From assembly GCA_043819795.1 (NCBI GenBank), contig JBDREN010000007.1:1-24440 (forward strand): 24,440 nt of DNA. The letters are read 5' to 3'. Under the pieces are notes generated by a model. It made no database searches and was not told the DNA's origin. It worked only from the letters and a program-made list of their open reading frames with translations. Of the stretch, positions 3,790 through 24,279 are shown piece after piece; position 1 is the first letter of the stretch; each line of letters opens with the position of its first letter. Made by a program: the position numbers and the translations under genes. This DNA comes from Elusimicrobiota bacterium. GTDB taxonomy: Bacteria; Elusimicrobiota; Elusimicrobia; UBA1565.

Positions 3790-3794
3790 TATGT

Positions 3795-3828
3795 ATTATA
3801 ACTATAACACGTTTATACTGTTTGTCAA
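3795..3828 (-). promoter_or_regulatory. Sigma70-type promoter for the HTH-REC/OmpR/kinase/REC operon
   Basis: Minus strand TTGACA-N16-TATAGT (TGn-extended), immediately followed by TATAAT 5 nt before ATG 3789; AT-rich island in GC-rich DNA. Confidence 0.7.
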
Positions 3829-4064: not shown

Positions 4065-4475
4065 CTAAGGGCGATGGCCGCTTGTGTACACGAAATGCCG
4101 GGAGCGGGCGATGAGGTTCTTGATCCGGAACCTCAGCTCATCAGCGTTGAAGGGCTTGGCCACGTAGTCGTCCGCCCCGAAGTTCAGCCCGTGGATCATG
4201 TTCTCCTGGTCGGCGAGCCCGGTCAGCATGAGGACGGGGATGTGATTGGTGAAGGGGTCGTTCATCATCTCGGCCAACATGCCGTACCCGTCGAGCCGGG
4301 GCATCATGACGTCCACGACGACCAGGTCCGGCCTGTGCGCGCGCGCCATGTCCAGGCCCTCCATGCCGTCTCGAGCCGTCAGGACCTCATACTCGCCTCC
4401 GCCGAGAGATTTTGTGACCGTCCTGCGGACGGCGTCGTCGTCGTCCACCACCAATACGCGTCGCCTGGTTTTCAT
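4065..4475 (-). CDS. Single-domain response regulator (OmpR-like REC without DNA-binding domain)
   Basis: VLVVDDD, PDLVVVDVMMP, PVLMLTG, GADDYVAKPF; AAAGGAG RBS. Confidence 0.93.
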   Translation of the reverse strand: MKTRRRVLVVDDDDAVRRTVTKSLGGGEYEVLTARDGMEGLDMARAHRPDLVVVDVMMPRLDGYGMLAEMMNDPFTNHIPVLMLTGLADQENMIHGLNFGADDYVAKPFNADELRFRIKNLIARSRHFVYTSGHRP

Positions 4476-4517
4476 ATCCGCTCCTTTGCCGATATCCTGG
4501 TTGTACGCTCTTAGAGT

Positions 4518-4566
4518 CGCATGCGGGGCTCTCAGGGGGCTCAGGGAAAGCTCAAATCATCCGCAA
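4518..4566 (-). promoter_or_regulatory. Degenerate 11-bp-periodic TGAG box array
   Basis: Minus-strand half-sites TTGCG (4562), TTGAG (4551), CTGAG (4540), GAGAG (4529), ATGCG (4518); CTCAGGG...GCTCAAAT resembles 8328-8345 and 24180-24197. Confidence 0.55.
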
Positions 4567-4617
4567 ATCCCCGGAGCGGTGGGGGAATCCGGCGTGGCGG
4601 GATAGGGGGATCGCCTA

Positions 4618-4646
4618 TTGACAAACCGGGGTAAACGCGCTATATA
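4618..4646 (+). promoter_or_regulatory. Sigma70-type promoter upstream of hybrid kinase
   Basis: TTGACA-N17-TATATA, followed by CATAT; same layout as 8441-8474. Confidence 0.7.
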
Positions 4647-4727
4647 CATATATTACAAGGATTACTAATTTAGGGCGCGCTCCGAAGCGCCGGGGAGCCT
4701 CCGGGATTTTTTTGACGACGAAAGGCC

Positions 4728-6542
4728 ATGTCTGACCGAACGGTAAAACGCGGCGGAATTTGGAAAATATTGGGATCCCTGCGTAAATTCAGAAGCCTCC
4801 CTTTGCCCCAGAACCCTCAGTCCTGCGGGCTTCTGGGACTGGTGAACTTCCTCCTCGTGGCCTACATCTGCCACGAGGTCTATATCCTGCGCCATCCGGG
4901 CGCGGGCTGGACCGACGACGTGGGGCTCGTGGCCTTCTTGTTGGCCGTCCTCTTCGTGGTGCTCCTCACCTTCTCCGCCAGGGACCGGCGGTTCGCGGCC
5001 ACGGCCATGTCCAAGAGGGTCCTCGATGGTATTTTCGCGGGCATGCGCGACGCCCTGATCGTATTCCATCCGGACGGCACGATCCGGAAGGTCAACGAGG
5101 CGGCGATGAAGCTGTTGGGCTACTCCGAGCTGGAGCTGGTCGGCAGGCCGGCGCGCGATCTGTTCCCGCAGGGGGACGGCGCCGACAAGGTCGGCCGGCT
5201 CGACGAATGGATCCGTGCCGGCGCGCCCGGCGAACGGGAGCTGTACGTCCTCACCAAGGCGGGGGAGAGGGTCCCGGTGGAGTTCTCGGCCTCGCCCCTG
5301 CGCGACGAGCGGGGCCGGATGGCCGGGATCATCGGCGTCGCACGGGACATCAGCGAGCGCAAGGCGGCGGAGGTGAGGGAAACGGTCCTGCAGGAGCAGC
5401 TTCTGCACGCGGAGAAGCTGAACACGCTGGGCCAGTCTCTTTCCGGCATCGCGCACGAGATCAATAACCCCCTGACCGGGATCATGACCTTCTGCCAGCT
5501 CCTGCTCCAGGAGGACGCGATCCAGGGCGACGCGCGCCACCGCGAGGACGTGGAGACGATCTTGCGGGAGGCGGAGCGGTGCAAGAAGATCGTCAAGAAC
5601 GTGACGACCTTCGCCCGCAAGCACAAGCCCGAGAAGACCTTCGTCGGATTGAACGGCATACTGCAGGACTGCCTCCGCCTGCAGAGCCGGCTGTTTAGGA
5701 ACCGGCACATCCGGGTCCGGACCGAGCTGGCCGGCGACGTTCCGAAGACGATGGCGGACTTCCACCAGCTCCAGCAGGTCTTCTTCATCCTGATCAACAA
5801 CGCCCTCGACGTCCTGGAGGACCGTCCGGGAGAGGGAGCCGTCACGATCCGGACCCGGCGGGAGGGAGAGAACATCCGCGTGGAGTTCGAGGACGACGGG
5901 CCCGGCATCCCGGCGGACAACCTCCAGAAGATCTTCGAGCCGTTCTTCACCACCAAGGAGGTGGGCCGGGGCACGGGGCTCGGGCTCCCCATAGCCTACG
6001 GCATCATCGCGGAGCACGGCGGCCGGATCTGGGCCGAGAGCCGGCGGCAAGGGGCTCTGTTCGTCTTCGAGATCCCCGTCACCGAGGACGCCTCGCGCGC
6101 GGCCGGCGAAGCTCCGGCGGCCGAGCCCCCTCTTCCTTCCGGCTGGCGGGTGCTGGTGGTGGACGACGAGGACAGCATACTCACCGGCATCCTGCGGCTG
6201 CTCCGGCAGATGAACATGAGGCCGGACGTGGCCCGGGACGGGAAGGCGGCGTTGGAGAAGCTCCAGCAGGGCGACTACGACGCGGTCTTCTGCGACCTGA
6301 GGCTCCCGGGCTGCGACGGGATGGTGCTCTACCGCTGGATGAAGGAGAACAAGCCCGAGCTTGTTCCGCGCTGGGTATTCATCACCGGGTCGGCGAGCGA
6401 CGAGGCGCGGAGCTTTTTCGAGGGGCCCGATCTGGCCTGCCTCCAGAAGCCTTTCGGCGCTAAGGAGATCCGCGAGACGCTGTCCCGCCTGGCCGGGCCG
6501 GGGCCGCGCGGGGGGGGAGCGATGCATGAAGGGCACGCTTGA
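4728..6542 (+). CDS. Hybrid sensor kinase: 2 TM + PAS + HisKA/HATPase + REC
   Basis: Two hydrophobic helices; PAS (NEAAMKLLGYS...RDISERK); SGIAHEINNPL; FEPFFTTK; GTGLGL; C-terminal VLVVDDE...FCDLRLP...LQKPF. Confidence 0.95.
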   Translation: MSDRTVKRGGIWKILGSLRKFRSLPLPQNPQSCGLLGLVNFLLVAYICHEVYILRHPGAGWTDDVGLVAFLLAVLFVVLLTFSARDRRFAATAMSKRVLDGIFAGMRDALIVFHPDGTIRKVNEAAMKLLGYSELELVGRPARDLFPQGDGADKVGRLDEWIRAGAPGERELYVLTKAGERVPVEFSASPLRDERGRMAGIIGVARDISERKAAEVRETVLQEQLLHAEKLNTLGQSLSGIAHEINNPLTGIMTFCQLLLQEDAIQGDARHREDVETILREAERCKKIVKNVTTFARKHKPEKTFVGLNGILQDCLRLQSRLFRNRHIRVRTELAGDVPKTMADFHQLQQVFFILINNALDVLEDRPGEGAVTIRTRREGENIRVEFEDDGPGIPADNLQKIFEPFFTTKEVGRGTGLGLPIAYGIIAEHGGRIWAESRRQGALFVFEIPVTEDASRAAGEAPAAEPPLPSGWRVLVVDDEDSILTGILRLLRQMNMRPDVARDGKAALEKLQQGDYDAVFCDLRLPGCDGMVLYRWMKENKPELVPRWVFITGSASDEARSFFEGPDLACLQKPFGAKEIRETLSRLAGPGPRGGGAMHEGHA

Positions 6543-6930
6543 CGCCGGCGTGCTCGTCGTGGACGATGAACCGGCCATCCGGAGGCTCCTGACCCGCTGG
6601 CTGGAGCTGAAGGGATGCTCCGCCGCCGCCGCGGCGACGGCGGAAGAGGCCCTCGAGATGACGAGGGCCCGGCCCTACGACGTCATCCTGCTCGACGAGG
6701 GTCTTCCCGGGATGATGGGCCTGCCCGCCCTGATGGAGCTGTCCCGGCAGACCTCGGCCGCCATCATCATGATGACCGGCAGGCCGAGCGACGATCTCGA
6801 GAGGGACGCCCTGCTCCTGGGCGCCAGGGCCTTCGTGCGCAAGCCCCTGGACCTGGATGCCCTGGAGCGCACGATCAGGGAATCCCTTCGCGGGAAAGAA
6901 GGAGCCGCGCCTTCAGCCGGAGGATCCTAG
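6526..6930 (+). CDS. Single-domain response regulator (REC)
   Basis: VLVVDDE, YDVILLDEGLPG, IIMMTG, FVRKP; ATG 6526 overlaps the end of the upstream kinase. Confidence 0.92.
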   Translation: MKGTLDAGVLVVDDEPAIRRLLTRWLELKGCSAAAAATAEEALEMTRARPYDVILLDEGLPGMMGLPALMELSRQTSAAIIMMTGRPSDDLERDALLLGARAFVRKPLDLDALERTIRESLRGKEGAAPSAGGS

Positions 6931-7036
6931 GCAGCGGCGCGGTCCTCCGAGCCGGGCTCCTCCGGCTCCATCGGGCGGCCTACAGTAGGCTCACCCCCCA
7001 TCAAGTCCCAGCCCTCTAAGGACGATATACCCTCTT
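6915..7036. repeat. Left copy of 122-bp direct repeat (putative long target-site duplication)
   Basis: Matches 7783-7904 without gaps, 6 mismatches by eye; abuts the element TIR and includes the stop codon of the 6526-6930 gene. Confidence 0.9.
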
Positions 7037-7782
7037 CCTGACTTCCGCAAGGCTTCCTGAATCCTCCGCCTCTCCGACGGAGAGGCATTGGAGATCGGGT
7101 GTCCCATCAACAACCGTTATGTCCCCTCCGCCCCGCTTCGTGGGGGAGGATGGGGGGATCACCTCTCCCGCTTGCGGGAGAGGTCGCGCGGAGCGCCGCG
7201 AAGCGCGGGTGAGGGTCGGTTGGGCAAGGCCTCTGGAATCGCCCCCAGCACGCAATCCGTTTCCAGCGGGGCGTCGTTGTCCCGGAAGCGGAGGACCTGC
7301 CACCCCTTCGAGCGCAGGAAGGCGGTCCGTTTCTTATCGTAGTGTCGGCGCTCTCGATGCTGGCCTCCGTCTAGCTCGACGACCAAACGGCTTTCGACGC
7401 GGCAGAAGTCCACGATGTAGGGGCCGATGGGGTGCTGGCGGCGGAATTTCCATCCGGCCGGCCTTCGCGATCGCAGGTGGCGCCAGATGCGGGCCTCGGC
7501 GTCTGTGGGGGTCCGGCGCAGACCGCGAGCGAAGCCTATCGGGTTCATGGGCGATGCCTCGTTACCGTATACGAGCGAACGCCTCCATGAGTTCCCCCCC
7601 TCACCCTGACCCTCTCCCCCGAAGGGCTAATCTTTACCCACAACTATTTTGAGCACAAGGGGAGATAGGGATTTTTTAGAAGATTCATGATGGAGGCGTC
7701 AGTGGTAAAGGTTGTAAGCCATACGACGGAAACGGTGGCTTACCATACGGCTTTGTCTGGGTGTCCCATCGCGGAAGTCAGG
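7037..7782. mobile_element. Non-autonomous TIR element (IS1634/IS1549-like by insertion signature) carrying DUF559
   Basis: Perfect 12-bp TIRs CCTGACTTCCGC (7037-7048) and GCGGAAGTCAGG (7771-7782), flanked precisely by 122-bp direct repeats; second copy at 42-607; no transposase inside. Confidence 0.8.
7159..7548 (-). CDS. DUF559 / Vsr-like endonuclease domain protein (possibly decaying)
   Basis: ARGLRRTPTDAEARIW, KFRRQHPIGPYIVDF, LVVELDGGQH, D..RTAFL...G..VLRF. It has RFRD where the other copy has RFWD. Flanked by hairpin 7161-7184 and CCCTCACCCTGACCCTCTCCC 7598-7618. Confidence 0.85.
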   Translation of the reverse strand: MNPIGFARGLRRTPTDAEARIWRHLRSRRPAGWKFRRQHPIGPYIVDFCRVESRLVVELDGGQHRERRHYDKKRTAFLRSKGWQVLRFRDNDAPLETDCVLGAIPEALPNRPSPALRGAPRDLSRKRER

Positions 7783-7904
7783 AGCCGGCGGATCCTAGGC
7801 AGCGGCGCGGTCCTCCGAGCCGGTCCCCTCCGACTCCGTCGGGCGGCGTACAGTAGGCTCACCCCCCATCAAGTCCCAGCCCTCTAAGGACGATATACCC
7901 TCTT
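7783..7904. repeat. Right copy of 122-bp direct repeat
   Basis: Matches 6915-7036. Confidence 0.9.
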
Positions 7905-7918
7905 CGGCTCGCCGGCGT

Positions 7919-8094
7919 GTGAGCGTCCCGTGAGCGTCCCGTGAACCTGCATCAGCTGTCCAAGGGAAGCGGAATCGCCTTAGGCTCCGTCGGCGCGTGA
8001 GCCTCCCGCGAGCCTCGCTTGAGCCTTCCAAGAACTCTCGTTGAGCTTTATTTGAGGATTCTAAGACCCGGATATGAGCGCGCCCATATATATA
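7919..8094 (+). promoter_or_regulatory. Extended 11-bp-periodic TGAG box array and AT-rich -10 region
   Basis: GTGAG 7919, GTGAG 7930, GTGAA 7941; then GTGAG 7997, GCGAG 8008, TTGAG 8019, TTGAG 8041, TTGAG 8052, ATGAG 8074 (one register); 10 bp; TATATA 8089. Confidence 0.7.
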
Positions 8095-8118
8095 TATAGC
8101 AGCAAGGAGGAGGAGTCC

Positions 8119-8307
8119 ATGAAGCCCAAAAAACGCTTGTTGATCGTAGACGATAGCCTCCCTATCCGGACGTTGGTGCAGCGCATCTTCGACGAAGGCG
8201 GGTATGAGGTCTTGACGGCCGAGGACGGGGTGCAGGGGCTCGACATGGCCCGCGCGCACATCGCTTCGATTTTTTCATGGGGTCTTCCTCTTTCCTCCCT
8301 AGGGTAG
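8119..8307 (+). pseudogene. Truncated REC response regulator
   Basis: Strong AAGGAGG RBS. MKPKKRLLIVDD...YEVLTAEDGVQGLDMARAH parallels the 4065-4475 protein, then similarity stops at ~8259, before the phosphoacceptor Asp. Confidence 0.85.
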
Positions 8308-8354
8308 CGGGGGAGGCTCACAGGAGCCTCAGGGGGTGCTCAAATTATCCTCAA
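8301..8354 (-). promoter_or_regulatory. Four-box TGAG promoter driving a deleted gene
   Basis: TTGAG 8350, TTGAG 8339, CTGAG 8328, GTGAG 8317, 10 bp, TACCCT; then GGAGG/GAGG and ATG at 8278. Similar to 24153-24206. Confidence 0.75.
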
Positions 8355-8440
8355 CTAATGGATGGCCCCGGGATTTGAGGATGCCAAGATGCGTCAATGT
8401 CACGCAAGCACTCTTTCTATATGGATGTCAGCGGCCGTCC

Positions 8441-8469
8441 TTGACTTGTCGCCGAAGCGAGGCTATATA
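8441..8469 (+). promoter_or_regulatory. Sigma70-type promoter
   Basis: TTGACT-N17-TATATA followed by CATAT, upstream of GGAGG and ATG 8508. Confidence 0.65.
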
Positions 8470-8507
8470 CATATGGATAGGGACTTGGCGGAGGTTCAGG
8501 CAAGGCC

Positions 8508-8873
8508 ATGGCCAGGATATTGATCGTAGACGACGAACGGGCGGTGGTCGATACCCTCGCCGAGTTCCTGAGCGGGAAGGGCCACGAGGTGGTCTCGGCC
8601 GGCGATCCTATCCGGGGCCTGCAGGCGGCTCGGCGGTTTGAACCCGAAATCGTCCTGCTCGACTACCACATGCCCGGCGACACCGGCGCCCACCTCTTCG
8701 AGGCCTTTCGCCGCAACCAGAAGCTCAAGGACATTCCGATCCTGTTCATGTCGGGCAGCAAGACGGAGGAAGAGTTGGCCGCCGAGGTCGCGAGCCGCGA
8801 GAAGACCGCCTACCTTATGAAGCCTGTCCGGTTCGATGACCTCGAGAGGACGATCGACGATCTCCTAGCCTAG
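8508..8873 (+). CDS. Single-domain response regulator (REC)
   Basis: ILIVDDE, PEIVLLDYHMPG, PILFMSG, YLMKPV. Confidence 0.93.
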   Translation: MARILIVDDERAVVDTLAEFLSGKGHEVVSAGDPIRGLQAARRFEPEIVLLDYHMPGDTGAHLFEAFRRNQKLKDIPILFMSGSKTEEELAAEVASREKTAYLMKPVRFDDLERTIDDLLA

Positions 8874-8905
8874 CCGCCCCCGACCGGGATCCGGTCCTTT
8901 GGAGC

Positions 8906-9598
8906 CTACTTCTCGAGCTTGTAGCCGACGCCCCGCACGGTGCTCAGGTATTTCGAGACTTTGGGGCCGAGCTTGCTGCGCAGGCGCGAGATGTGCGTCT
9001 CGACCGTGTGGGGGTCGTTGTAGTCGGCCACGTCGTAGCCCCAGACGGCTTCCAAAAGGAAGGTCGCCTTGAGCACGCGGCCCGGGTTCGCCAGGAACAG
9101 GGCCAGCAGGTCGAACTCCTTTCGGGTCAAAGTCAGTGCCTTGCCGTCGACCTTCACCTCGCGCGAAGCGGGATCGAGCTGGATGCCGTACTTCTTGACG
9201 CTCGCTTCTCCCGTCGAGGCGTGCTCGTATCGCCGAAGCACCGCGTGGATGCGCGCGAGCATGACCTTCATGGGGAAGGGCTTGATCAGGTAGTCGTCGG
9301 CCCCGCCTTCCAGCCCCGCCACCACGTCTTTTTCGTCCATCAGCTCCCCCGACATGATGATGACGGGGATGTTCCGCGTGGCCCTGTCCTTCCTCAGCAG
9401 GCGGCACAAGGTGTGGCCGTCTAGGCCGGGCATGTCCGCGTCGGTGAGGATGATGTCGGGGCGGGTCTCCTTGGCGAGCAGGCGCCCGTCGGAGCCGTCG
9501 GCCGCGGAAACGACCGAGAAGCCGTCCCGGCGCAGCTCCTTCTCGAGGGTCTTTCTCATGCTTTCGACGTCGTCGATGATGAGGATCTTCTTGGGCAT
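8906..9598 (-). CDS. OmpR/PhoB-family response regulator
   Basis: ILIIDD, ILTDADMP, GADDYLIKPF, LTRKEFDLL, VWGYDVADYNDPHTVETHISRLRSKLG, TVRGVGYK; paralog of 2378-3187. Confidence 0.96.
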   Translation of the reverse strand: MPKKILIIDDVESMRKTLEKELRRDGFSVVSAADGSDGRLLAKETRPDIILTDADMPGLDGHTLCRLLRKDRATRNIPVIIMSGELMDEKDVVAGLEGGADDYLIKPFPMKVMLARIHAVLRRYEHASTGEASVKKYGIQLDPASREVKVDGKALTLTRKEFDLLALFLANPGRVLKATFLLEAVWGYDVADYNDPHTVETHISRLRSKLGPKVSKYLSTVRGVGYKLEK

Positions 9599-9604
9599 AG
9601 ACGG

Positions 9605-9695
9605 ATTCTAGCTTCTTGCTCACGGGAACTTCAACCAAAGCGTGAGGCGCAGTTGAGGCCGTCTTGCGCCGCCGCTGAGCCTCGTCCTCCATACT
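9605..9695. promoter_or_regulatory. Divergent promoter with TGAG boxes, both sides apparently leaderless
   Basis: Plus: GTGAG 9642, TTGAG 9653, TTGCG 9664, CTGAG 9675, 10 bp, CATACT 9690, 6 nt, ATG 9702. Minus: TTGAA 9630, GTGAG 9619, TAGAAT (9610-9605), 6 nt, ATG 9598. Confidence 0.75.
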
Positions 9696-9701
9696 TGGGG
9701 T

Positions 9702-10640
9702 ATGGGAAGACGACCAGTGTCGGGGGCGATCCGGACCTTGGCGGCGGCCGGCGTCTTCCTCTGCATCCCGCCGTTGACTGCGTGGGCGGGGGGAGGCCAG
9801 AAGTCGATCGCGCGGAGCTTCCTGCGCGCGGCGAAGAAAGCCGGAGTCCGGCGCGTGGCGGTCCTGCCCTTCAGGCCCTTGGACGGCTCCAGCGCGGCCC
9901 AAGGGCGGCTTCTCGCCGAAGAGCTGACCACCCGTCTGGCGAGGGGAAGAGCCGTGAGCGTCGTGGAGCGCTCTTGGATGGACGCCCTCATGAGCGAGCA
10001 CCGCCTGGGACGCAGCGGCGTCCTGGCCGAGGAGAGCCTCACGCGCATCGGGCGTCTGCTGCAGGCCGAGGCGGTCGTCGTCGGGTCTTTCGCCGCGGTG
10101 GGGGACGCTCTGGAGCTTCACGTCCGCCTCATCGAGATAGAGACCGGAGTCGTCCTCTGCGCCCGGCGCAAGCGCGTGAAGGCGGAGCCGTTCGCCGGTG
10201 ACGGCTTCGCCTCGAGCCCGGCGTTCGTCTTTCCGGAGGAGGAGGCCGCCGCGCGTGGGCCCGGCTGGACGTTCGGGCCGCCGGCCGCCGTCGCGGAGGC
10301 CGGCTGCGAGGCGGCCGAGCGCCGCGTCAACGCTCTGGTCGGCGGCATCCTGGATCTCAAGGCCCGGTACTGGGCCGAACAGGCGCGGAAATCGGGGCTG
10401 CCCAGAGGGATTCTAAGCAGGACCGGCGCGTCGATCCCGGACCCGGTCCTGCGGGCGTGGTTTTACCGGCTCGTGACGGACGCCTTCGACCGGCGGGCTC
10501 CGTCCTTGAGCGCGACGGAGATGAAAAGGTTCATGGCGGCCGACCGCGAGGCGTTCATCCTGGGTCTTAGCTGCGTGCGGGCTTCTCCCCGGACCGCGGC
10601 CGGCGGCCGCGTCGGAAAGCGCTATGCGAGAGGACGGTGA
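9702..10640 (+). CDS. Exported FlgO/CsgG/TolB-N-like domain protein with helical C-terminal domain
   Basis: Signal-like N-terminus ending AWA; RVAVLPF...LAEELTTRL...VVERS..DALMSE...IGRLLQAEAVVVGS...VRLIEIETG is the typical FlgO/CsgG-family pattern. Confidence 0.8.
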   Translation: MGRRPVSGAIRTLAAAGVFLCIPPLTAWAGGGQKSIARSFLRAAKKAGVRRVAVLPFRPLDGSSAAQGRLLAEELTTRLARGRAVSVVERSWMDALMSEHRLGRSGVLAEESLTRIGRLLQAEAVVVGSFAAVGDALELHVRLIEIETGVVLCARRKRVKAEPFAGDGFASSPAFVFPEEEAAARGPGWTFGPPAAVAEAGCEAAERRVNALVGGILDLKARYWAEQARKSGLPRGILSRTGASIPDPVLRAWFYRLVTDAFDRRAPSLSATEMKRFMAADREAFILGLSCVRASPRTAAGGRVGKRYARGR

Positions 10641-10682
10641 TCCGGAGGGCGCCGTCCGGACGGGGCGGCGGGAGGGAGTCGA

Positions 10683-12065
10683 ATGAACGCCGATGGGATG
10701 ATCCTTGTCGTTGACGACGAGCCGAGCGTCCGGTCCTTTTGCGCGAGGGTGTTGAGCGCCTCGGGCTTCGTCGTCAAGACGGCGCAAAACGCGCACGAGG
10801 CCCTGTCCGTCCTGGAGGTCGAGACGCCGGACCTGGTGTTGAGCGATCTTTGGATGCCGTACGCATCGGACGGGCAGCGGCTGCTCGAGGAGATCAAGAG
10901 GCGGTCTCCCTCCACGGACGTGGTGATCATGACCTCGTATCCCGATGTGAGCACCGCTGTCCCGGCTTTCAAGAACGGGGCGTGCGAGTATCTGGGCAAG
11001 CCCTTCAGCGAGGACGCGCTGGGATCGGCGGTGAGGCGCCGCTTCGAGGAGCGCCGGATGTCCGCGGAGCGGCGCTGGCATGAGCGGATGCAGGAGGAGC
11101 TCTCGGCGGCCTACTCGGAGCTTGAGAAGACGGAGCGTCTCAAGGACGCGGTCTTGTCCCGGCTGAACCACGAGCTGAGGACGCCGATGGCCGTGTCGCT
11201 CATGAGCCTGGAATGCCTTTCCAAGGGGATCTCGGACGGGTGGGGGATGAAGCTCTGCGGCAAGCTGCGCTCCGGGCTCGATCGGCTGCGGGAGACGGTG
11301 GAGGACCTTCTTCTATTCAAGGACCTCCAGCGCGAGGGATCGCTCCTGCGCACCTCGCGGGTGGACGTGATACCGGTCCTCGAGAGGGCTATCGCCGCGT
11401 GCAAGCCCCTATACGACGACAAGGGGATCGCCGTCAGGTTTTCGGTCGAGGGCGAGGCGGGCGCTCTGGAGGCGGACGAAAGACTTCTGGAGACCGCGTT
11501 CAAGCACCTTCTGCTCAACGCGATCCACTTCAACCGGAAGGGCGGCGGCATAGACGTCCGCGTGGGAAGACAGCGCGACGGTCTTGCGGTTTCTTTTGCG
11601 GACACCGGGATCGGGATCCCGGAGGAGAAGCGGCTCCGGGTATTCGACGGCTTCTATCAGGCCGCGGACCATATGACGCGCAAGGTGGGCGGCTTGGGCC
11701 TGGGCCTGGCCATCGTGCGCAGGATCGTCGAGGCGCACGGCGGCGGCGTCTTCGTCGAGAGCCGCGAGGGCGAGGGCAGCGTGTTCACCGTCGCGATCCC
11801 TTTCGGGGAGCCGATGGATGGGGAGTCGGCGATCGGGGAAGGCGGGCGGGCGGCTCAAGAGGCCTCCGGAGGCGACCTCCCGGGCTGTCCGCCGTGTTCG
11901 ATTGCGGAAGCCGGATTCCGCGAGGCGGACTCGGCGCGGCGGGAAGAGCCCTATCTGCTCTTCGTGGATGACGGTATGCCCCAGGAAGGCGGCCCGTTGG
12001 AGGCGATCGTGGGGCGCGTCGGCGGACGCGGCTTCGTGTTGATGAGTCCCGGGCTCGACTTCTGA
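10683..12065 (+). CDS. Hybrid REC-histidine kinase (cytoplasmic)
   Basis: ILVVDDE, PDLVLSDLWMP, YLGKPF; LNHELRTP; LLNAIHFN, DTGIGI, GGLGLGL; about 85-aa atypical tail. Confidence 0.93.
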   Translation: MNADGMILVVDDEPSVRSFCARVLSASGFVVKTAQNAHEALSVLEVETPDLVLSDLWMPYASDGQRLLEEIKRRSPSTDVVIMTSYPDVSTAVPAFKNGACEYLGKPFSEDALGSAVRRRFEERRMSAERRWHERMQEELSAAYSELEKTERLKDAVLSRLNHELRTPMAVSLMSLECLSKGISDGWGMKLCGKLRSGLDRLRETVEDLLLFKDLQREGSLLRTSRVDVIPVLERAIAACKPLYDDKGIAVRFSVEGEAGALEADERLLETAFKHLLLNAIHFNRKGGGIDVRVGRQRDGLAVSFADTGIGIPEEKRLRVFDGFYQAADHMTRKVGGLGLGLAIVRRIVEAHGGGVFVESREGEGSVFTVAIPFGEPMDGESAIGEGGRAAQEASGGDLPGCPPCSIAEAGFREADSARREEPYLLFVDDGMPQEGGPLEAIVGRVGGRGFVLMSPGLDF

Positions 12066-12140
12066 ATTCGAGGCCGCTCGCCGCGGCGAGAGAAGCCCTT
12101 CCGGATCGGATTCCGGCCCGATCGCTGCGGCGCGCGCGGC

Positions 12141-15242: not shown

Positions 15243-15258
15243 AAGGTCGTTTCCTCCA

Positions 15259-15720
15259 TCATATCCGCCTCCTTCTCTCGGCCTTCCCCCGGCCGCCCTC
15301 ATGGGTGCGGGCTTCCTGAGGGGGGGTATGCGGGGAATCCAGGACGTTTCGTACCAGCGCGGCCAAAACGCCGGGGGAGAACGGCTTGGGAAGGAAGTTC
15401 CGGCCGGAGATGAGATTCCCGCGGTGAGAAATAGCCTCCGCCGGATAGCCGGAAGTGAAGATGACCTTGATGCCGGGCCGGGCCGACTTCACGCGGCGGG
15501 CCGGCTCCGCGCCGTGTATCCCCGGCATCACGAGGTCGGTGAGCGGAAGATGGATGATCTCTTTGTGGTCCCCGAGGATCCGGAGGGCCTCCGCGCCGCC
15601 GCCCGCCTCCAGGAGCTTGTAGCCGCGGTTTCTTATGACGCGGAGGAAGGTCTTGCGCACCGCGGAGTCGTCCTCGACGATCAAAATACGGAGCTTCTTC
15701 TCCGTTCGGGTTTCGTTCAT
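15259..15720 (-). CDS. Stand-alone REC protein resembling the C-terminal REC of CckA-type kinases (possibly decaying)
   Basis: ILIVEDD, TDLVMPG, VIFTSGY, FLPKPF; has Pro in HLPLTD and GAEPARR where the paralog has Leu. Confidence 0.85.
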   Translation of the reverse strand: MNETRTEKKLRILIVEDDSAVRKTFLRVIRNRGYKLLEAGGGAEALRILGDHKEIIHLPLTDLVMPGIHGAEPARRVKSARPGIKVIFTSGYPAEAISHRGNLISGRNFLPKPFSPGVLAALVRNVLDSPHTPPQEARTHEGGRGKAERRRRI

Positions 15721-16154
15721 TTGGGCGGACGCTCGTTGAGCAGGAGCCAGTACAGGCCAAGATGCTTCACCGCCTCCGCGAACTGGTTGAAATCCACGGG
15801 CTTGCGCACGTAGCTGTTGGCTCCCAATTCGTAGCTTTTCATGAGGTCTTCCTCCTGGGTGGAGCCGGCAAGAATGACCACCGGGAGGATCTTGGTGCGC
15901 TCGTCGGCGCGAATGCGCTTGAGGACCTCGAGGCCGTTGAGCTTCGGCAGCTTGATGTCCAGGAGGATGACCGCCGGACCACGGGAGAGGTCGCGGCCCG
16001 CGTGCTCGCCGGCGGCGAACAGGTAGTCCAGGGCCTCCGCGCCGTCGCGGGCCACATGGACTTCGTTCGTGATATTGCTCTTCTTGAGGGCTCTGACGGT
16101 CAGGGCCTCGTCGTCCGGATTATCTTCCACCAATAGGATGGCCCCGTTGGTCAT
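15717..16154 (-). CDS. Rcp1-like single-domain response regulator
   Basis: ILLVEDNPDDE, DGAEALDYL, ILLDIKLPKLNGLEVL, SYELGANSYVRKPV, LGLYWL; AAGGAGG RBS. Confidence 0.93.
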   Translation of the reverse strand: MTNGAILLVEDNPDDEALTVRALKKSNITNEVHVARDGAEALDYLFAAGEHAGRDLSRGPAVILLDIKLPKLNGLEVLKRIRADERTKILPVVILAGSTQEEDLMKSYELGANSYVRKPVDFNQFAEAVKHLGLYWLLLNERPPK

Positions 16155-18015
16155 GGCTTGCCTCCTTTTTTTGTCCGATCGTGAAAAAGAACGTCGCGCC
16201 TTCGCCCGGGCTGGCCTCGGCCCAGATCCGGCCGCCATGCAGGGTGATGATGCGCCGGACGGTCGCCAGGCCGATGCCGTTGCCTGGGAACTCCTCGGTT
16301 CTGTGCAGGCGCTGGAAAGCCTGGAAGAGCTTGCCGGCGTAGGCCATGTCGAATCCCGCGCCGTTGTCGCGCACGAAAAGCGTCGTCATCCCGTCCTCGA
16401 TGGCGGCGCCGAATCGGATGCGCCCTTTGGGCAGCTTGCCGGTGAATTGCCACGCGTTGCCGATGAGATTCTCCAGGGCGATCTTTATGAGGGCCGCGTC
16501 GCCATCGAGCGAGACGCCCTCCTCGATGTCCAGCTCGACATCGCGGCCCGGGTTCGCCTTCCGCAAGTCTCCGGCCACCGCCAGGGCGAGCGCGCTCATG
16601 TCCAGATTTCCCCAGGAGATTTCCCTCCGAGTGACCCTGGAGAGGCTGAGCAAGTCGTCTATGAGCGATCCCATGCGCTGCGCGGCGGCGCGGACCCGCT
16701 GGAGATGTTGTCGGCCTTCCGCGTCCAGTTTTTCCCCAGAGTCCTCGAGCAGCGCGAGGCTGAAGCCGTCTATGCTTCTGAGCGGGGCCCGCAGGTCGTG
16801 GGAGACGGAGTAGGCGAAAGAGGCCAGCTCTTCGTTGGTCGCTTCAAGCTGGGAGGAGTACCGCTTCAGTCTCTCGGCCGCCCGCCTGCTCTCTGTGATG
16901 TCGGTATGGACCGAGATCAATACCTTTCCGTATTCATGGTGCTGGAACAAGGATACGCTGGCATGGCACCAGAAGCGGGCGCCGTCCTTCTTGATGTTCT
17001 CGACCTCGCCTTGCCAGGTCCCTTTTTCCTCCAGCTCCGCCATGACCCTTTTCACGGTCGCGGCCGGATCGAGGTCTCCGGGGGCATTGACTATCGAAAC
17101 ATGCTTTCCGAGCATCTCCCCGGGCCCATAGCCGAACATCTCTTCGAATTTAGGATTGGCGACCAAGATCGTGCCGTCAGCGGCCCTGATGAGGTAAACC
17201 CCTTCGCCCACATTGGCCATGATCTCGCCGTGAAGGCGCATATCGGCTTGTGCGGCTTCGCGCTCCGTGATGTCGGTGAGAGTCCCGACCCATTCCCGGA
17301 TGCCGCCGTTATCCCCGAACACCGGCACGCCTTTCACGCTGAAGAGGCGATAGGCGCCGTCGCGGCGGCGCAGGCGATACTGGGTGTCGTAAATGGAGCG
17401 CGTCTTTACCGCCTCCTCCCAGGCGGCCGCGGCCCCTTGCCGGTCTTCCGGATGCAGCGCGTCGAGCCAGCCCGATCCCCGTATCTCCCCGACGCTCTGG
17501 CCGGTGAAAGCCCTGTAGGCGGGAATATCCTCGCTCACCGCCCCTCGGGGGTCGGTCGTCCAGACGATTTGCGACGTCGCGCTCACCAGCGAGCGGAAAC
17601 GCTCTTCGCTCCGGCGCAGGTCCGTCTTCTGCCGGTCAAGGCGCAGGAAGACCGCGACCTTGCTGCGCAGTATCTGGGGGTCGAAGGGCTTGGTGATGAA
17701 GTCCACCGCGCCGGTCTCATAGCCCTTGAAGACATGCGCCTCTTCGGTGTAGGCCGCGGTCAGGAATATGACGGGCAGCTCTCGGGTCTTCTCCTCCCCG
17801 CGCAGGAGCCCGGCGAGCTCGTAGCCGTCCATCCCGGGCATCTGCACGTCCAATATCGCCGCGGCGAAATCGTGGTTGAGGCTGGCGGCCAGGGCCGCAT
17901 CGCCGCTGGCGGCCTTGACGAGCTCCGCCCCCGTGGCCTTGAGCACCTTCTCGAGAGCCAACAGGTTTTCGGCCTTGTCGTCCACGATAAGGAGCTTCTG
18001 CTTGTGCGCCGTCAT
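16120..18015 (-). CDS. REC-PAS-PAS histidine kinase with phytochrome (Cph1)-type transmitter
   Basis: LLIVDD...ILDVQMP...ITKPF; two PAS; FAYSVSHDLRAPLR; DNGAGFD; FQRLH; GIGLA. Confidence 0.95.
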   Translation of the reverse strand: MTAHKQKLLIVDDKAENLLALEKVLKATGAELVKAASGDAALAASLNHDFAAAILDVQMPGMDGYELAGLLRGEEKTRELPVIFLTAAYTEEAHVFKGYETGAVDFITKPFDPQILRSKVAVFLRLDRQKTDLRRSEERFRSLVSATSQIVWTTDPRGAVSEDIPAYRAFTGQSVGEIRGSGWLDALHPEDRQGAAAAWEEAVKTRSIYDTQYRLRRRDGAYRLFSVKGVPVFGDNGGIREWVGTLTDITEREAAQADMRLHGEIMANVGEGVYLIRAADGTILVANPKFEEMFGYGPGEMLGKHVSIVNAPGDLDPAATVKRVMAELEEKGTWQGEVENIKKDGARFWCHASVSLFQHHEYGKVLISVHTDITESRRAAERLKRYSSQLEATNEELASFAYSVSHDLRAPLRSIDGFSLALLEDSGEKLDAEGRQHLQRVRAAAQRMGSLIDDLLSLSRVTRREISWGNLDMSALALAVAGDLRKANPGRDVELDIEEGVSLDGDAALIKIALENLIGNAWQFTGKLPKGRIRFGAAIEDGMTTLFVRDNGAGFDMAYAGKLFQAFQRLHRTEEFPGNGIGLATVRRIITLHGGRIWAEASPGEGATFFFTIGQKKEASHDQRGHPIGGR

Positions 18016-19244
18016 GGCCTCTCTTGTGCCAGCTTGCTCAGGCCCATGTCAGGCTTAGTCCTATGGGCGGCTCGCGTCGAGCGGGAGCCAGTACCGTAGA
18101 CCGTATCGTCCCGCCAGTCACGCGAGGCCTCCTTCTTGTGTCCGATCGTGAAGAAGAACGCGGCGCCCTTGCCCGGACCGGCCTCGACCCAGACCCGGCC
18201 GCCATGCCGGGCGATGATCCTCTGGACGGTGGCCAGGCCGATGCCGGTTCCGGGGAAGTCCTCGGTCCGGTGCAGGCGCTGGAAAGCCTGGAAGAGCTTG
18301 TCGGCATGGGCCATGTCGAATCCCACGCCGTTGTCGCGCACGACAAGCGTCATCTGCCCCTCCGCGCGGGTCGCGCGGAATTGGATCCGCGCCTTGGGCA
18401 GCTTGCCGGTGAATTTCCAAGCATTACCCATGAGATTCTCCAGGACGATCTTCATGAGCCCCGCGTCAGCGTTGAGCGAGATCCCATCTTCGATATCGAA
18501 CTCGACATCGCGGCCCGGGTCCGCCTGCTGCAGGTCTTGGGCCACCGCTTGGGCAAGAGCGCTCATGTCCGTATTTCCACGGGAGATCTCCTTCTGCGTG
18601 ACCCGGGACAGGCTCAGTAGATCGTCTATGAGCGCGCCCATGCGCTGCGCGGCGGCGCGGACCCGATGGAGATGCTGCCGGCCCTTCGCGTCCAATTTCT
18701 CTTCATAATCCTCGAGCAGGGCGAGGCTGTAGCCGTCAATGGCCCTCAGCGGGGCCTTCAGGTCGTGAGAAACGGAGTAGGAGAAAGCGGCCAATTCCCT
18801 GTTGCTGGCTTCGAGCGCGGCGGTGCGACGAATGACGAGCTCCTCGAGCTTCTCTTTGGTCGCCGCCAGGCGCAGGAAGATCTCGATCTTGCTGCGCAGT
18901 ATGCTGGGCTCGAAGGGCGTGGTGATGAAGTCCACCGCGCCGGTCTCATAGCCCTTGAATATGTGCGCCTCGTCGGTGTAGACCGCGGTCAGGAATATGA
19001 TGGGCAGCTCTCGGGTCTTCCGCTCCCCGCGCAGGAGCCCGGCGAGCTCGTAGCCGTCCATCCCGGGCATCTGCACGTCCAATATCGCCGCGGCGAAATC
19101 GTGGTTGAGGCTGGCGGCCAGGGCCGCATCGCCGCTGGCGGCCTTGACGAGCTCCGCCCCGGTGCCCTGGAGCACCTTCTCAAGAGCCAACAGGTTTTCG
19201 GCCTTGTCGTCCACGATAAGGAGCTTCTGCCGCTGGGCGGTCAT
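18012..19244 (-). CDS. REC-histidine kinase, paralog of 16120-18015 without PAS
   Basis: Near-identical REC; FSYSVSHDLKAPLR; NAWKFT; DNGVGFD; GTGIGLA. REC Lys replaced (ITTPF). Confidence 0.92.
   Translation of the reverse strand: MTAQRQKLLIVDDKAENLLALEKVLQGTGAELVKAASGDAALAASLNHDFAAAILDVQMPGMDGYELAGLLRGERKTRELPIIFLTAVYTDEAHIFKGYETGAVDFITTPFEPSILRSKIEIFLRLAATKEKLEELVIRRTAALEASNRELAAFSYSVSHDLKAPLRAIDGYSLALLEDYEEKLDAKGRQHLHRVRAAAQRMGALIDDLLSLSRVTQKEISRGNTDMSALAQAVAQDLQQADPGRDVEFDIEDGISLNADAGLMKIVLENLMGNAWKFTGKLPKARIQFRATRAEGQMTLVVRDNGVGFDMAHADKLFQAFQRLHRTEDFPGTGIGLATVQRIIARHGGRVWVEAGPGKGAAFFFTIGHKKEASRDWRDDTVYGTGSRSTRAAHRTKPDMGLSKLAQERP
18061..18121 (-). pseudogene. Internally deleted remnant of an Rcp1-like gene inside the kinase tail
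   Basis: AAGGAGG + GTGAC at the position equivalent to the intact rcp start, then TACTGGCTCCCGCTCGACG..CCGCCCA, matching the intact 3' end TACTGGCTCCTGCTCAACG..CCGCCCA. Confidence 0.7.
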
Positions 19245-19555
19245 GGCATTTCCTCCGCCAGCTTGTTGAGCGCCGCGCCGATCTCCCGGAGCGTCGCGAT
19301 TCTCTCAACGCCTCCCGCCTCGATGGCGGAGCGGGGCATCACCGGGTGCTCCGCGCCGGCGGGGTCCTGGGCGAAAGTGCGCCCCCCGAGCCCGCGGATC
19401 GCCAGCATCCCGGCCGCGCCGTCGGGGCTGGCTCCCGTGAGGAGGACGCCTATCACGCCGGAGCGCCAGGCGCGTGCCGCGCTCTCGAAGAGCACGTCTA
19501 TAGACGGCCGCGAGTGGTTCACTTTTTTCAATGGGTCTGCTGAATAAAAAGACAC
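19241..19555 (-). pseudogene. cheB: C-terminal fragment of CheB-type methylesterase
   Basis: SRPSIDVLFESAA, GVLLTGASPDGAAG, GGRTFAQDP, MPRSAI present; N-terminal half with the catalytic Ser (GxSxGG) and His is absent. Confidence 0.88.
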
Positions 19556-19608
19556 CGCCTCACCCGGGCGGGAGGGTAGTTTCCCTTAATAGGGCGATGC
19601 AAAGACGT

Positions 19609-19654
19609 TTAATACGAGTATTAATAGTTTACATCTAATAGGTGCGGATTGCTA
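19609..19654 (-). promoter_or_regulatory. Candidate promoter with palindromic operator
   Basis: Minus TAGCAA-N17-TAAACT (19654-19626), followed by perfect palindrome TTAATAC-GA-GTATTAA (19609-19624). Confidence 0.5.
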
Positions 19655-19804
19655 TAGGGAAAAGCCGTATTCTGACCTGGGGGAAAATCCCAGAGGAAGG
19701 CGCGGGCAGGATGCCTGTGCCGATGGCGAAAGGGCGCCGGGATGGAGGGGGGCCCTGCACCGCTTCGCGACGCGGCGCGGGGGGGCCGAAAGGGCGTCGG
19801 GCGG

Positions 19805-20530
19805 CTAAGACCCCCCGCGGGCTCGGCCTCGGCGCCGTTGTTCGACGAGGCCCCATTCCACGGCGAGCCGGACGAGCTCGGCGGAGCCCCTCAGGCCCAG
19901 TTTCTTCTTTATGTTCTCGCGGTGGGATTGGACCGTCTTGACGCTGCGGTGGAGCGTGTCGGCTATCTCCCGCGTCCCCCGGCCCCGGCCGATGAGGCGG
20001 AAGATCTCCATCTCCCGGTCGCTCCGCGCCTGGATGGGGGAGGCGCCTGGGCGCGCCGTGCCGAGGCCGATGCCGACCTGCCGGCGCATGATGTCGGACC
20101 GGACGGCGTCGCTCAGGAAGATATCGCCCTTCAGGACCCGGCGGACCGCCCGGACCAGGTTCGCCGTCAGCGCTTCCTTCATGATGTAGCCTTGGGCCCC
20201 GGCCCGGAGGGCCCGCTCGGCGTAGACCGACTCGTCGTGCATGGAAAGGATCAGGATGGGCAGCTTGTGCCTTCGGGCCCTGATCCGCTTGACGAGCTCG
20301 ATCCCGTCGTCCCCCTTGAGCGAGATGTCCACGACGGCCATGTCCGGCGATCTTTCCTTGACGGCGAGAAGCGCGGCGTGGGCATCGTGGACGATGCCGC
20401 AGACCCTGAGACCCGGCTGCTGGCCGAGGACCTCCGCCAGGCCCCGGGCCACGATAGGATGGTCGTCCACGATGAGGATCCCGCCCCGCATCGGTCCCGG
20501 CCCGGCCCGGGCGCCTTTGCCGGCCGTCAT
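19805..20530 (-). CDS. NarL/LuxR-family response regulator
   Basis: ILIVDDHPIV, VVDISL, ILSMHDE, GAQGYIMK, SDREMEIFRLIGRG...EIA..L..SVKTV.SHRENIKKKLG. ATGA overlap with the kinase; alternative start 20491. Confidence 0.95.
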   Translation of the reverse strand: MTAGKGARAGPGPMRGGILIVDDHPIVARGLAEVLGQQPGLRVCGIVHDAHAALLAVKERSPDMAVVDISLKGDDGIELVKRIRARRHKLPILILSMHDESVYAERALRAGAQGYIMKEALTANLVRAVRRVLKGDIFLSDAVRSDIMRRQVGIGLGTARPGASPIQARSDREMEIFRLIGRGRGTREIADTLHRSVKTVQSHRENIKKKLGLRGSAELVRLAVEWGLVEQRRRGRARGGS

Positions 20531-23307: not shown

Positions 23308-23582
23308 GTCCGTTCTCCCGCTGAAACGGTCCTTGCCATCGACGCGGCTTGCCGGACCCGCGATGATCCCCTCTCACCCGGCATCCCAACGGTTCGGGCC
23401 GGGCGCCCCTCCGGCATGCGTCGTCCGCGGTATCGCTTGTCTCGAGGAGCGACGCTGCCACGGGAAAGGGCGCGGGTCGTCTTTGCATAGGGCCGTTCAG
23501 GCCGGCGACGCTGCTGTTCCCCGTCGTGGGATGGTCCGCTCAGGTGTGACCGAAGGGGGCGCAAGACCGAACGCCTCTACTC

Positions 23583-23611
23583 AGTATAGCCAGCGATCTT
23601 GCGGCACGCAA
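23583..23611 (-). promoter_or_regulatory. Candidate sigma70 promoter for the MEDS kinase-NarL pair
   Basis: Minus strand TTGCGT-N17-TATACT. Confidence 0.55.
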
Positions 23612-23671
23612 TAGAGGATTTTGGGGATTTTGGGCTGGATTCCGGGCGGGGACCGGGGGCGGCCGGCGCCC

Positions 23672-24130
23672 TTACTGGAAACGCCTGCCGGAGAGCTCCT
23701 TGAGCCGCGAGACGGGAAGCCGCACGGTCACCTCGCAGCCGGCGTCGGCGGTGAACTCTGAGTTCACCAGGCCCGAGCGCGCGAAGACTGACTCGATGCG
23801 GCCGGCGAGCTCCGAGTCCGAATCCATGGCGCGGGCGAGGGCCGCGTCGTTGGAGAGGGGGACGTCCTTCGCGAGGGAGCGCATCTCGTATTGGGCCTGC
23901 AGGACGGTGGCCTCCAGGGCCATGGCGGCGCACTCGCTCGTGGTGCCCGCGGCGAAGGCGGTCCCGCCCGTCGCGGCGCGCGCCGGGGCCCGCTCCGCGG
24001 CCGACCTTCCGGCGTCCACGTCGCCGGCGTAGTGCAGCGGGCGGCTGTCCACTCCCGCGTATCCCGTGCCGACGAGCCAGATCGCCAGGGCCAAGGTGAC
24101 CGTCTTGAGTATGTGCTCTTTTATCTTCAT
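23672..24130 (-). CDS. Exported protein, LPP20/FlgP-like
   Basis: Signal peptide (MKIKEHILKTVTLALAIWLVGTGYA); the C-terminal A..QA....R.L...V.L.......AM.SD......I.............G..EVTVRLP pattern resembles LPP20/FlgP. No lipobox Cys. Confidence 0.6.
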   Translation of the reverse strand: MKIKEHILKTVTLALAIWLVGTGYAGVDSRPLHYAGDVDAGRSAAERAPARAATGGTAFAAGTTSECAAMALEATVLQAQYEMRSLAKDVPLSNDAALARAMDSDSELAGRIESVFARSGLVNSEFTADAGCEVTVRLPVSRLKELSGRRFQ

Positions 24131-24152
24131 GGTATTTCCCTCGCTCAGTATT

Positions 24153-24279
24153 AGGGTAGCGGACGCGGCTCAAGCGAACCTCAGGGAGCGCTCAAATATT
24201 CCTCAACTAAGGAGGGCTTGGGTATTTGAGGATTAGTTGAGAAGTACTTGAGGGTGAAGGGAGCGCGGGGGGCTATGCT
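24153..24279. promoter_or_regulatory. Back-to-back four-box TGAG promoters
   Basis: Minus: TTGAG 24202, TTGAG 24191, CTGAG 24180, TTGAG 24169, 10 bp, TACCCT. Plus: TTGAG 24226, 24237, 24248, GGGAG 24259, 10 bp, TATGCT 24274. Confidence 0.8.

What the first reader, a model, noticed from the sequence alone, without database searches (positions are those of the whole stretch)
4518..24279. Pho-box-like regulon code: 4 x (nTGAG-N6), 10 bp, -10 hexamer, repeated across the island
Seen: half-sites at exact 11-bp intervals with exactly 10 bp to a -10-like hexamer at 8301-8354 (-, TACCCT), 9642-9695 (+, CATACT), 24153-24206 (-, TACCCT), 24226-24279 (+, TATGCT) and 8041-8094 (+, TATATA, one degenerate box). 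Weaker arrays lie at 4518-4566 and 9619-9634. Established: PhoB-type regulators bind 11-bp direct repeats that replace the -35 element about 10 bp upstream of -10. Inference: the local OmpR paralogs control a self-contained regulon of exported proteins and further REC proteins, readable directly from sequence. I do not recognise this motif as a described site.
Basis: partly seen in the sequence, partly recalled or inferred. Interest (0 to 1): 0.8.

Follow-up and report, generated by a model that had tools for sequence, protein, structure and literature searches.

The report
Two-dialect regulator boxes in Elusimicrobia promoters
A four-part DNA repeat sits at one fixed distance in front of about twenty likely promoters in this uncultured bacterium and in many relatives; it is likely the docking site through which a family of neighbouring response regulators switches on genes for signalling and exported proteins, a known mechanism, and its two spellings track one amino acid of the regulator that may decide which spelling is read.

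Summary
Real. Four nTGAG half-sites at 11-bp steps end exactly 10 bp before a -10 hexamer. A matrix built from window half-sites alone found 11 intergenic arrays on other contigs, 10 with the hexamer at that offset (background 1.7%). The regulon is genome-wide (21 sites, 15 outside the window), not island-confined. It recurs in 42 of 101 genomes of the order; 52 of 115 foreign arrays have an ATG 6 nt after the hexamer (likely leaderless mRNAs), which fixes the register. The likely readers are one clade of OmpR-family regulators, two of them in the window: 32 of 104 clade genes have an array within 200 bp. Two spellings occur, TGAG and TAAG; the local spelling follows the neighbouring paralog in 6 of 8 genomes holding both types. 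His at the PmrA-N188-equivalent position goes with TGAG, but tree-based tests are not significant. It is not a Pho box. One flagged site (9619-9634) is an ordinary -35; two others face broken genes. The mechanism is known, and the scan noted such boxes (other motifs) in other taxa; this motif and regulon were not found in print. Binding is untested.

The parts
9642..9695 (+). Four half-sites (the third degenerate) plus a -10 hexamer at 9690-9695; predicted activator-dependent, leaderless promoter, divergent from the regulator gene
   Evidence: score 34.2; ATG 6 nt after the hexamer; a divergent array 28-48 bp from the ortholog's start also in L007, L012, L014, L023
9702..10640 (+). Target: exported CsgG/FlgO-like protein, one of the three conserved target groups across the order
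   Evidence: Pfam PF03783/PF17680; 27-member cluster; alignment with 24 relatives; Atlas clusters 0.96-0.97
10683..12065 (+). Receiver-histidine kinase directly downstream of the CsgG-like gene, likely co-transcribed
   Evidence: Pfam REC+HisKA+HATPase; co-transcription inferred from the 42-nt gap
8906..9598 (-). OmpR-family response regulator, likely reader; His197 (codon 9008-9010) is the first residue of the recognition helix
   Evidence: Pfam PF00072+PF00486; clade; below every named NCBIfam cut-off listed; residue position
9605..9634 (-).
2378..3187 (-). Second OmpR-family paralog of the same clade; His204 (codon 2576-2578) at the same helix position
24153..24206 (-). Four perfect half-sites plus -10 hexamer; best-scoring site in the genome
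   Evidence: score 40.1
23672..24130 (-). Target: small exported LPP20-like protein, second conserved target family
   Evidence: no Pfam hit; Atlas lead LPP20 at 0.89, under its 0.9 bar; 11-member cluster
24226..24279 (+). Four half-sites plus -10, back to back with 24153-24206; faces an ORF starting at 24345 that is cut by the contig end
   Evidence: score 35.6; the ORF's first 32 aa end in a receiver-like motif, no Pfam hit
8301..8354 (-). Four perfect half-sites plus -10; homologous copy of 24153-24206 whose own gene is lost (only a 38-codon frame follows)
8041..8094 (+). Degenerate array (third half-site and -7 T missing) in front of a truncated receiver gene at 8119-8307; likely a relic
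   Evidence: score 21.4; the fragment is 83% identical at DNA level to part of 4065-4475; Pfam below cut-off
4513..4566 (-). Weaker array with an imperfect hexamer in front of the single-domain receiver gene 4065-4475; the same layout occurs on contig C135
   Evidence: score 22.0

Best explanation
Four half-sites at 11-bp steps lie at a fixed distance before a sigma-70-type -10 hexamer, and they are likely the binding sites of one Elusimicrobia clade of OmpR-family regulators, which would bind as two tandem dimers and likely activate transcription by standing in for the missing -35 element. Shown: the period, the distance, the lack of a -35 at 17 bp, the start codon 6 nt after the hexamer in 52 of 115 foreign arrays, tight linkage to clade genes, and two spellings (TGAG, TAAG) that follow the neighbouring paralog. 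With that ATG as +1, the conserved Ts sit at -59, -48, -37 and -26. Inferred from known family structures: phosphorylation-driven dimers, contact with sigma region 4 and the beta flap, activation rather than repression. Inferred from sequence: the core regulon is further signalling proteins plus a CsgG/FlgO-like and an LPP20-like exported protein, so an envelope or surface programme with feedback onto signalling genes; the residue at the PmrA-N188 position (His versus Gly/Asn/other) likely reads the variable base at -25/-36. The input signal and cognate kinase are unknown.
For: Chance excluded in the genome. Order-wide: the pattern with the 10-bp spacer has 96 hits in 42 of 101 genomes (3 reversed-pattern control hits); with an 11-bp spacer it has 4 hits in 4 of 101. 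In 100 regions around clade genes there are 80 hits at the true -10 offset against 9-20 at offsets shifted by 1-3 bp. ATG at exactly +6 in 52 of 115 arrays, background 2.3%. 32 of 104 clade genes have an array within 200 bp and 56 within 4.1 kb. Helix first residue His/Gln: 12 TGAG, 1 TAAG; other residues: 40 TAAG, 2 TGAG, 1 mixed. In 6 of 8 genomes with both regulator types, each type has its own spelling beside it. In a second order of the class, every regulator with an array nearby has His and the arrays read TGA. Outside the clade: His in 5 of 8 regulator clusters beside TGAG arrays, 0 of 8 beside TAAG arrays, 5 of which have Asn (Fisher p 0.026). PmrA N188 contacts the AA of its box, and the box replaces -35 (PMC10570014, PMC4660055). 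Two tandem dimers on four sites are seen for PhoP (PMC11825685). The afs box has its conserved Ts at -38 and -27 (PMC10936776).
Against: No binding, start-site or expression data. Which of the six paralogs reads which site cannot be told; all may share the sites. 48 of 104 clade genes have no array scoring >=20 within 4.1 kb. The residue-base link is mostly one evolutionary split: 2-3 independent pairs within the order, p 0.5-1; 5 pairs with other phyla added, on average 3.2 concordant and 0 discordant, p 0.25; Fisher p 0.07 once Elusimicrobiota are removed. Exceptions: L167 and L173 (Arg, TGA-type arrays); three TGAG clusters in other phyla have Asn or Ser/Thr. A second helix position (PhoB R201 equivalent) separates the spellings about as well inside the order. 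Only 2 of 21 sites in this genome have the ATG at +6. Two of the six window sites face broken genes.
Confidence: 0.85

Rival explanations
1. The arrays are real promoter elements but are read by another direct-repeat binder, such as the HTH_17/MerR-like receiver protein at 3184-3789 or a SARP-type activator, and the OmpR genes are only neighbours.
For: An HTH_17-REC gene lies in the window. HTH_17/MerR-like proteins such as BldC oligomerise on direct repeats (recalled, no call). The phase matches the afs box of the SARP AfsR.
Against: HTH_17-like genes are in only 4 of 100 regulator regions; 51 of 53 array-bearing regions lack one. The six BTAD hits in the genome are weak and lie in long frames on contigs with no OmpR-type DNA-binding domain. 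The spelling follows the local OmpR paralog within single genomes.
Confidence: 0.06
2. The clade binds the arrays but mainly as a repressor, or the third half-site acts as a -35 with a long spacer that the regulator realigns, instead of recruiting polymerase PhoB-style.
For: The third half-site (-38 to -33) resembles a -35 hexamer 20 bp from the -10; afsS has its poor -35 at the same place. PmrA activates partly through DNA distortion. Divergent arrays begin 28-48 bp from the regulator's own start, close enough to occlude its promoter.
Against: No -35 consensus at 17 bp, so basal activity should be low and there would be little to repress. The genome's second 11-bp code keeps an intact -35, which shows the contrast.
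Confidence: 0.06
3. The arrays are copies of one duplicated or mobile DNA segment, with no regulatory meaning of their own.
For: 8301-8354 and 24153-24206 are homologous, and a repeated DUF559 element and a rearrangement lie next to 8041-8354.
Against: Spacer bases differ between sites while half-sites and distance stay fixed. The top 21 sites are all intergenic and face different genes. The element recurs across three families of the order and in a second order, with start codons in register.
Confidence: 0.02

Closest known systems
PhoB and the Pho box (E. coli pstS); PhoP PHO boxes of M. tuberculosis (PMC10570014, PMC11825685; passages read)
   Same: 11-bp direct repeats over the -35 region; REC plus winged-helix regulator; two tandem dimers on four sites as in 4PhoP-TAC.
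   Different: Half-site TGAG/TAAG rather than TGTCA; the last dimer's sites span about -38 to -23 against -41 to -25 for pstS; regulators score 182-195 bits against the PhoB cut-off of 296.2; no phosphate gene among the 21 targets.
PmrA/BasR box (PMC3973317, PMC4660055, PMC10570014) and BqsR box of P. aeruginosa (PMC4358008); passages read
   Same: The TAAG spelling matches the published BqsR tandem repeat TTAAG(N)6TTAAG, which overlaps -35; the helix layout matches PmrA (N188, V192, H193, N196 as listed in the papers).
   Different: Four half-sites, not two; the TGAG spelling in this genome; His or Gly in place of N188; about 2 bp upstream of the pmra-box by the paper's numbering; regulators score 108-130 bits against the PmrA cut-off of 330; different targets.
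SARP activators and the afs box (AfsR; PMC10936776 section 7 and passages, PMC10972967 passages)
   Same: Same phase relative to the start site: T-T-x-A at -38 to -35 and -27 to -24; 11-bp repeats; sigma-adaptation geometry.
   Different: The likely readers are REC-wHTH proteins with no BTAD domain; the variable base is a purine, not a pyrimidine; the targets are not biosynthetic clusters.

Membership tests
OmpR/PhoB-type activated promoter | Direct repeats at an 11-bp period | tested here: met
   (23 sites >=20 at period 11; 0, 0, 1 at periods 10, 13, 14)
OmpR/PhoB-type activated promoter | Fixed position over the -35 region, with a -10 hexamer and no -35 consensus at 17 bp | tested here: met
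OmpR/PhoB-type activated promoter | A REC plus winged-helix regulator with an intact acceptor site is linked to the sites | tested here: met
   Pfam; acidic pocket, acceptor Asp, Ser and Lys read from the alignment; linkage and dialect match
OmpR/PhoB-type activated promoter | Regulator binds the repeats and activates transcription when phosphorylated | not testable with these tools
   needs EMSA, reporter or in vitro transcription
Pho regulon (PhoB/Pho box proper) | TGTCA-type half-site | tested here: not met
   column counts; a separate TGTCA code exists elsewhere in the genome
Pho regulon (PhoB/Pho box proper) | Regulator is a PhoB equivalog | tested here: not met
   192.1 and 194.6 bits against TIGR02154 cut-off 296.2
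Pho regulon (PhoB/Pho box proper) | Targets are phosphate uptake or scavenging genes | tested here: not met
   0 of 21 sites; the single PBP_like_2 hit in the genome has no site among the 26 scoring >=18
SARP (AfsR/ActII-ORF4 type) | OmpR-type DNA-binding domain fused to a BTAD domain | tested here: not met
SARP (AfsR/ActII-ORF4 type) | Repeat phase of the afs box (-40 to -19) | tested here: met
   register from leaderless ATGs compared with PMC10936776
PmrA/BqsR regulons | TTAAG-type half-site | tested here: inconclusive
   met by the TAAG dialect in relatives; not met by the window's TGAG sites
PmrA/BqsR regulons | Regulator is a PmrA ortholog | tested here: not met
   129.9 and 117.5 bits against cut-off 330; BqsR orthology was not tested

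The most novel reading that the evidence does not exclude
One residue at the start of the OmpR recognition helix is a portable specificity switch: His reads G and Asn, Gly or Arg go with A at the same base of the half-site. The pairing arose independently in Elusimicrobiota, Bacillota and Chloroflexota, and Elusimicrobia use it to run two insulated regulons, often on leaderless transcripts, from sister paralogs in one cell.
Probability: 0.4. Interest if true: 0.7.

Novelty: new member of a known kind. Interest (0 to 1): 0.48.

Why it matters
It gives a readable regulatory code for a phylum with almost no promoter biology in the searched literature: a motif, its register, its likely readers and a conserved core regulon of uncharacterised exported proteins and kinases. 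The natural pair of spellings, each beside its own paralog in the same genome, makes a long-standing question cheaply testable: which helix residues set OmpR-family DNA specificity. One substitution and two oligonucleotides would test it. The activation mechanism itself is textbook.

Tried and rejected
RNA evidence: no RNA holder was listed for window 8000-10700; no evidence either way. Single-sequence fold of the CsgG-like target: mean pLDDT 39, not used. Phylogenetic independence of the residue-base link: not significant. The PhoB-R201-equivalent position as the determinant: fits inside the order (His: 39 TAAG, 1 TGAG, 1 mixed; others: 13 TGAG, 2 TAAG), but a Bacillota cluster with His there sits beside TGAG arrays and TAAG clusters carry Arg, Lys or Ser, so it is disfavoured. 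The PhoB-V197-equivalent position: Val occurs with both spellings, rejected. 9619-9634 as an autoregulatory array: rejected. HTH_17 or SARP reader: disfavoured. The period-10 and period-13 controls used unmatched offsets and are not relied on; matched ones are. Across the phylum sample the pattern hit 42 of 301 genomes, but hits in the AT-rich families f4 (2 of 88) and f14 (2 of 89) are near the reversed-pattern control level; close relatives of the regulator (E below 1e-60) were seen only in the window's order and families f5 and f11 among 60 hand-picked genomes. The MprA box as a possible reverse-strand match is recalled only; the search returned unrelated papers. A paper on the OmpR-family protein-DNA code (Joyce and Havranek 2018, recalled) is not held. 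No complex prediction was sent.
Full report
Setting. The window is the whole of contig C7 of a 4.99-Mb, 66.8% GC draft genome. It is packed with two-component genes: two OmpR-family regulators (8906-9598 and 2378-3187), an HTH_17-REC protein, a LuxR-type regulator, several kinases and receivers, a CsgG/FlgO-like exported protein and a small exported protein. Earlier scan notes call the organism Elusimicrobiota. This agrees with named Elusimicrobiota records whose regulators fall in the same clade and with the Atlas clusters of two targets.

Observation. The arrays are as described. TGAG triples occur 11 times at period 11 and never at ten control periods that are not multiples of three or eleven. 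A matrix from the window's half-sites, with no -10 term, gave 12 hits scoring >=18 outside C7, 11 of them intergenic; 10 of those 11 carry YAnnnT exactly 10 bp after the last half-site, where the background is 1.7%. A joint model gives 26 sites >=18 in the genome; the top 21 are all intergenic, 6 on C7 and 15 on 11 other contigs. Matched controls at periods 10, 13 and 14 give 0, 0 and 1 sites >=20 against 23. So the element is real and genome-wide. In the window, 9619-9634 is the -35 region of the regulator's own ordinary promoter. 8301-8354 is a copy of 24153-24206 that has lost its gene, and 8041-8094 precedes a truncated receiver gene; the two face each other across a rearrangement.

Relatives. 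Close relatives of the 8906-9598 regulator occur in 93 of 101 genomes of the order. The TGAG pattern hits 16 of 101 genomes (47 hits, 0 reversed-pattern hits). Allowing A or G at the second base raises this to 42 of 101 (96 hits, 3 control hits); lengthening the spacer by 1 bp drops it to 4 hits. The element is also present in a second order of the class (family f5, 9 of 22 genomes), and near control level in families f4 and f14.

Register. In 115 distinct arrays from other genomes, an ATG lies exactly 6 nt after the hexamer in 52 cases, 50 of them opening a frame of at least 60 codons; the rate at offsets 9-39 is 2.3%. The ATG was in no model, so this is independent support for the hexamer as the -10 (-12 to -7) and points to leaderless mRNAs; the arrays include orthologous loci and are not fully independent. 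In this genome only 2 of 21 sites show it, one being 9642-9702. On this numbering the conserved Ts are at -59, -48, -37 and -26, and there is no -35 consensus at 17 bp. The PhoB site at pstS spans -41 to -25 and the pmra-box lies 4 bp downstream of it (PMC10570014, passages). The afs box spans -40 to -19, with T-38 and T-27 read by AfsR (PMC10936776, passages and section 7). Tandem dimers on four sites displace sigma region 4 in PhoP complexes (PMC11825685, passages). The element sits inside this known range.

Reader. The genome has 16 OmpR-type domains over the Pfam cut-off. Six share a helix motif and are the six own-genome matches to the window regulator; none of the five tested reaches a named NCBIfam cut-off among the families listed. 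I fetched 100 regions around the best matches (100 of about 200 matches; six regions were widened to include known arrays, and arrays beyond 4.1 kb were not counted). Of 104 clade genes there, 56 have an array within 4.1 kb and 32 within 200 bp; of the 35 arrays that close, 24 lie just after the stop on the same strand and 8 lie divergently before the start. HTH_17-like genes are in 4 of 100 regions, and no SARP was found.

Two spellings. One gene without a readable helix was dropped, leaving 103, of which 56 have arrays. Where the first helix residue is His or Gln, nearby arrays read TGAG in 12 cases and TAAG in 1 (that one shares its arrays with a Gly-type neighbour); with other residues, TAAG in 40, TGAG in 2 and mixed in 1. 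Eight of 43 genomes have both types with local arrays, and in 6 each type has its own spelling. In the second order all regulators with arrays have His and TGA arrays; seven of those regions were picked because an array was known to be near. This residue corresponds to PmrA N188, which contacts the AA of its box and is needed for activation (PMC4660055, PMC10570014, PMC3973317; passages). The TAAG spelling equals the BqsR box (PMC4358008, passages). Against this: p rises from 0.026 to 0.07 without Elusimicrobiota-type rows; the two scans used different collections; adjacency does not prove binding; and independent-pair tests give p 0.5-1 and 0.25. The link of arrays to the clade is strong; the single-residue code is a hypothesis.

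Targets. For the 21 sites in this genome: 9 signalling genes (receivers, receiver-kinases, a PAS kinase, a REC-GGDEF; one is a fragment, one is cut by the contig end), 7 exported or envelope proteins (three CsgG/FlgO-like, one LPP20-like, one AMIN-domain, one in a prepilin-type operon, one unknown), a flavodoxin-fold protein, an MbnB/TglH-family enzyme, two small unknown proteins and one site with no gene. Clustering 129 downstream ORFs (of 135; six were lost to duplicate labels, and a few automatic picks are in wrong frames) gives 58 signalling, 27 CsgG/FlgO-like and 11 LPP20-like. The sample is biased towards genes near the regulators. An envelope or surface programme with feedback on signalling genes is my inference; the stimulus is unknown.

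Prior art. Searches for Elusimicrobia with regulator, promoter or leaderless terms, for the TTGAG repeat with OmpR (0 papers) and for an OmpR protein-DNA code (0 papers) found no description of this motif or regulon. I saw listings for those searches and passages of PMC10783764, PMC10972967 and PMC3264566. No supplements were opened, most subscription papers are not searched, and one recalled paper on the code was not held. The scan has noted several boxes of this general kind with other motifs in other taxa, and no look-alike of this stretch.

Verdict. Interest 0.48.

Noticed in passing
G000, many contigs (e.g. C5:2576+, C37:11518+, C48:2317-, C140:46039+); degenerate copy in window 8426-8469 (+) before the receiver gene 8508-8873: A second, larger 11-bp code: three TGTCA-type half-sites in Pho-box register (last two at -41 to -25), an upstream T-rich box, an intact -35 embedded between the second and third half-sites, 17 bp, then -10. 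69 hits, all intergenic, mostly before large signal-peptide-bearing proteins. Possibly more interesting than the given finding.
   Followed up: partly
window 7035-7780 and 42-609: A repeated element carrying a DUF559 endonuclease gene (7159-7548) with GC-rich palindromic flanks; a shorter inverted copy at the window start and many partial copies at contig ends. The 7035-7780 copy is flanked by a 123-bp direct repeat (6915-7037 and 7783-7905, 95% identical).
   Followed up: partly
window 8119-8354: Rearrangement junction near 8260: the 5' part of a receiver gene is joined head-on to an orphaned promoter and ribosome-binding region.
   Followed up: yes
G000 genome-wide; L079-L178: Signal for leaderless genes: YAnnnT ends 6 nt before the called ATG in 108 of 2964 genes against about 55 at other offsets; for the clade regulators themselves 13 and 12 of 85 at 6 and 7 nt.
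   Followed up: partly
L191, L192, L216, L236, L240, L253-L255, L257 (Bacillota): The same four-TGAG promoter with the same spacing occurs in gut Clostridia beside an unrelated OmpR family with His at the same helix position, upstream of ABC-transporter-like genes.
   Followed up: partly
L167, L172, L173, L152, L177: A possible third spelling (TGAC-rich half-sites) beside paralogs with Thr, Ala or Gly in place of the helix Glu.
   Followed up: no
window 9702-10640 and relatives (alignment A2): The CsgG/FlgO-like target family has a C-terminal domain with two invariant cysteines and a KARxW motif and no Pfam match.
   Followed up: no
window 3184-3828 (-): HTH_17/MerR-like plus receiver gene with a near-consensus sigma-70 promoter at 3828-3801 that heads an operon with the second OmpR paralog and a 6TM PilS-like kinase.
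   Followed up: no
window 19241-19620 (-): Truncated gene resembling a chemotaxis methylesterase C-terminus (label recalled, not searched) next to an AT-rich gap, upstream of two near-duplicate receiver-kinase genes at 16120-19244.
   Followed up: no
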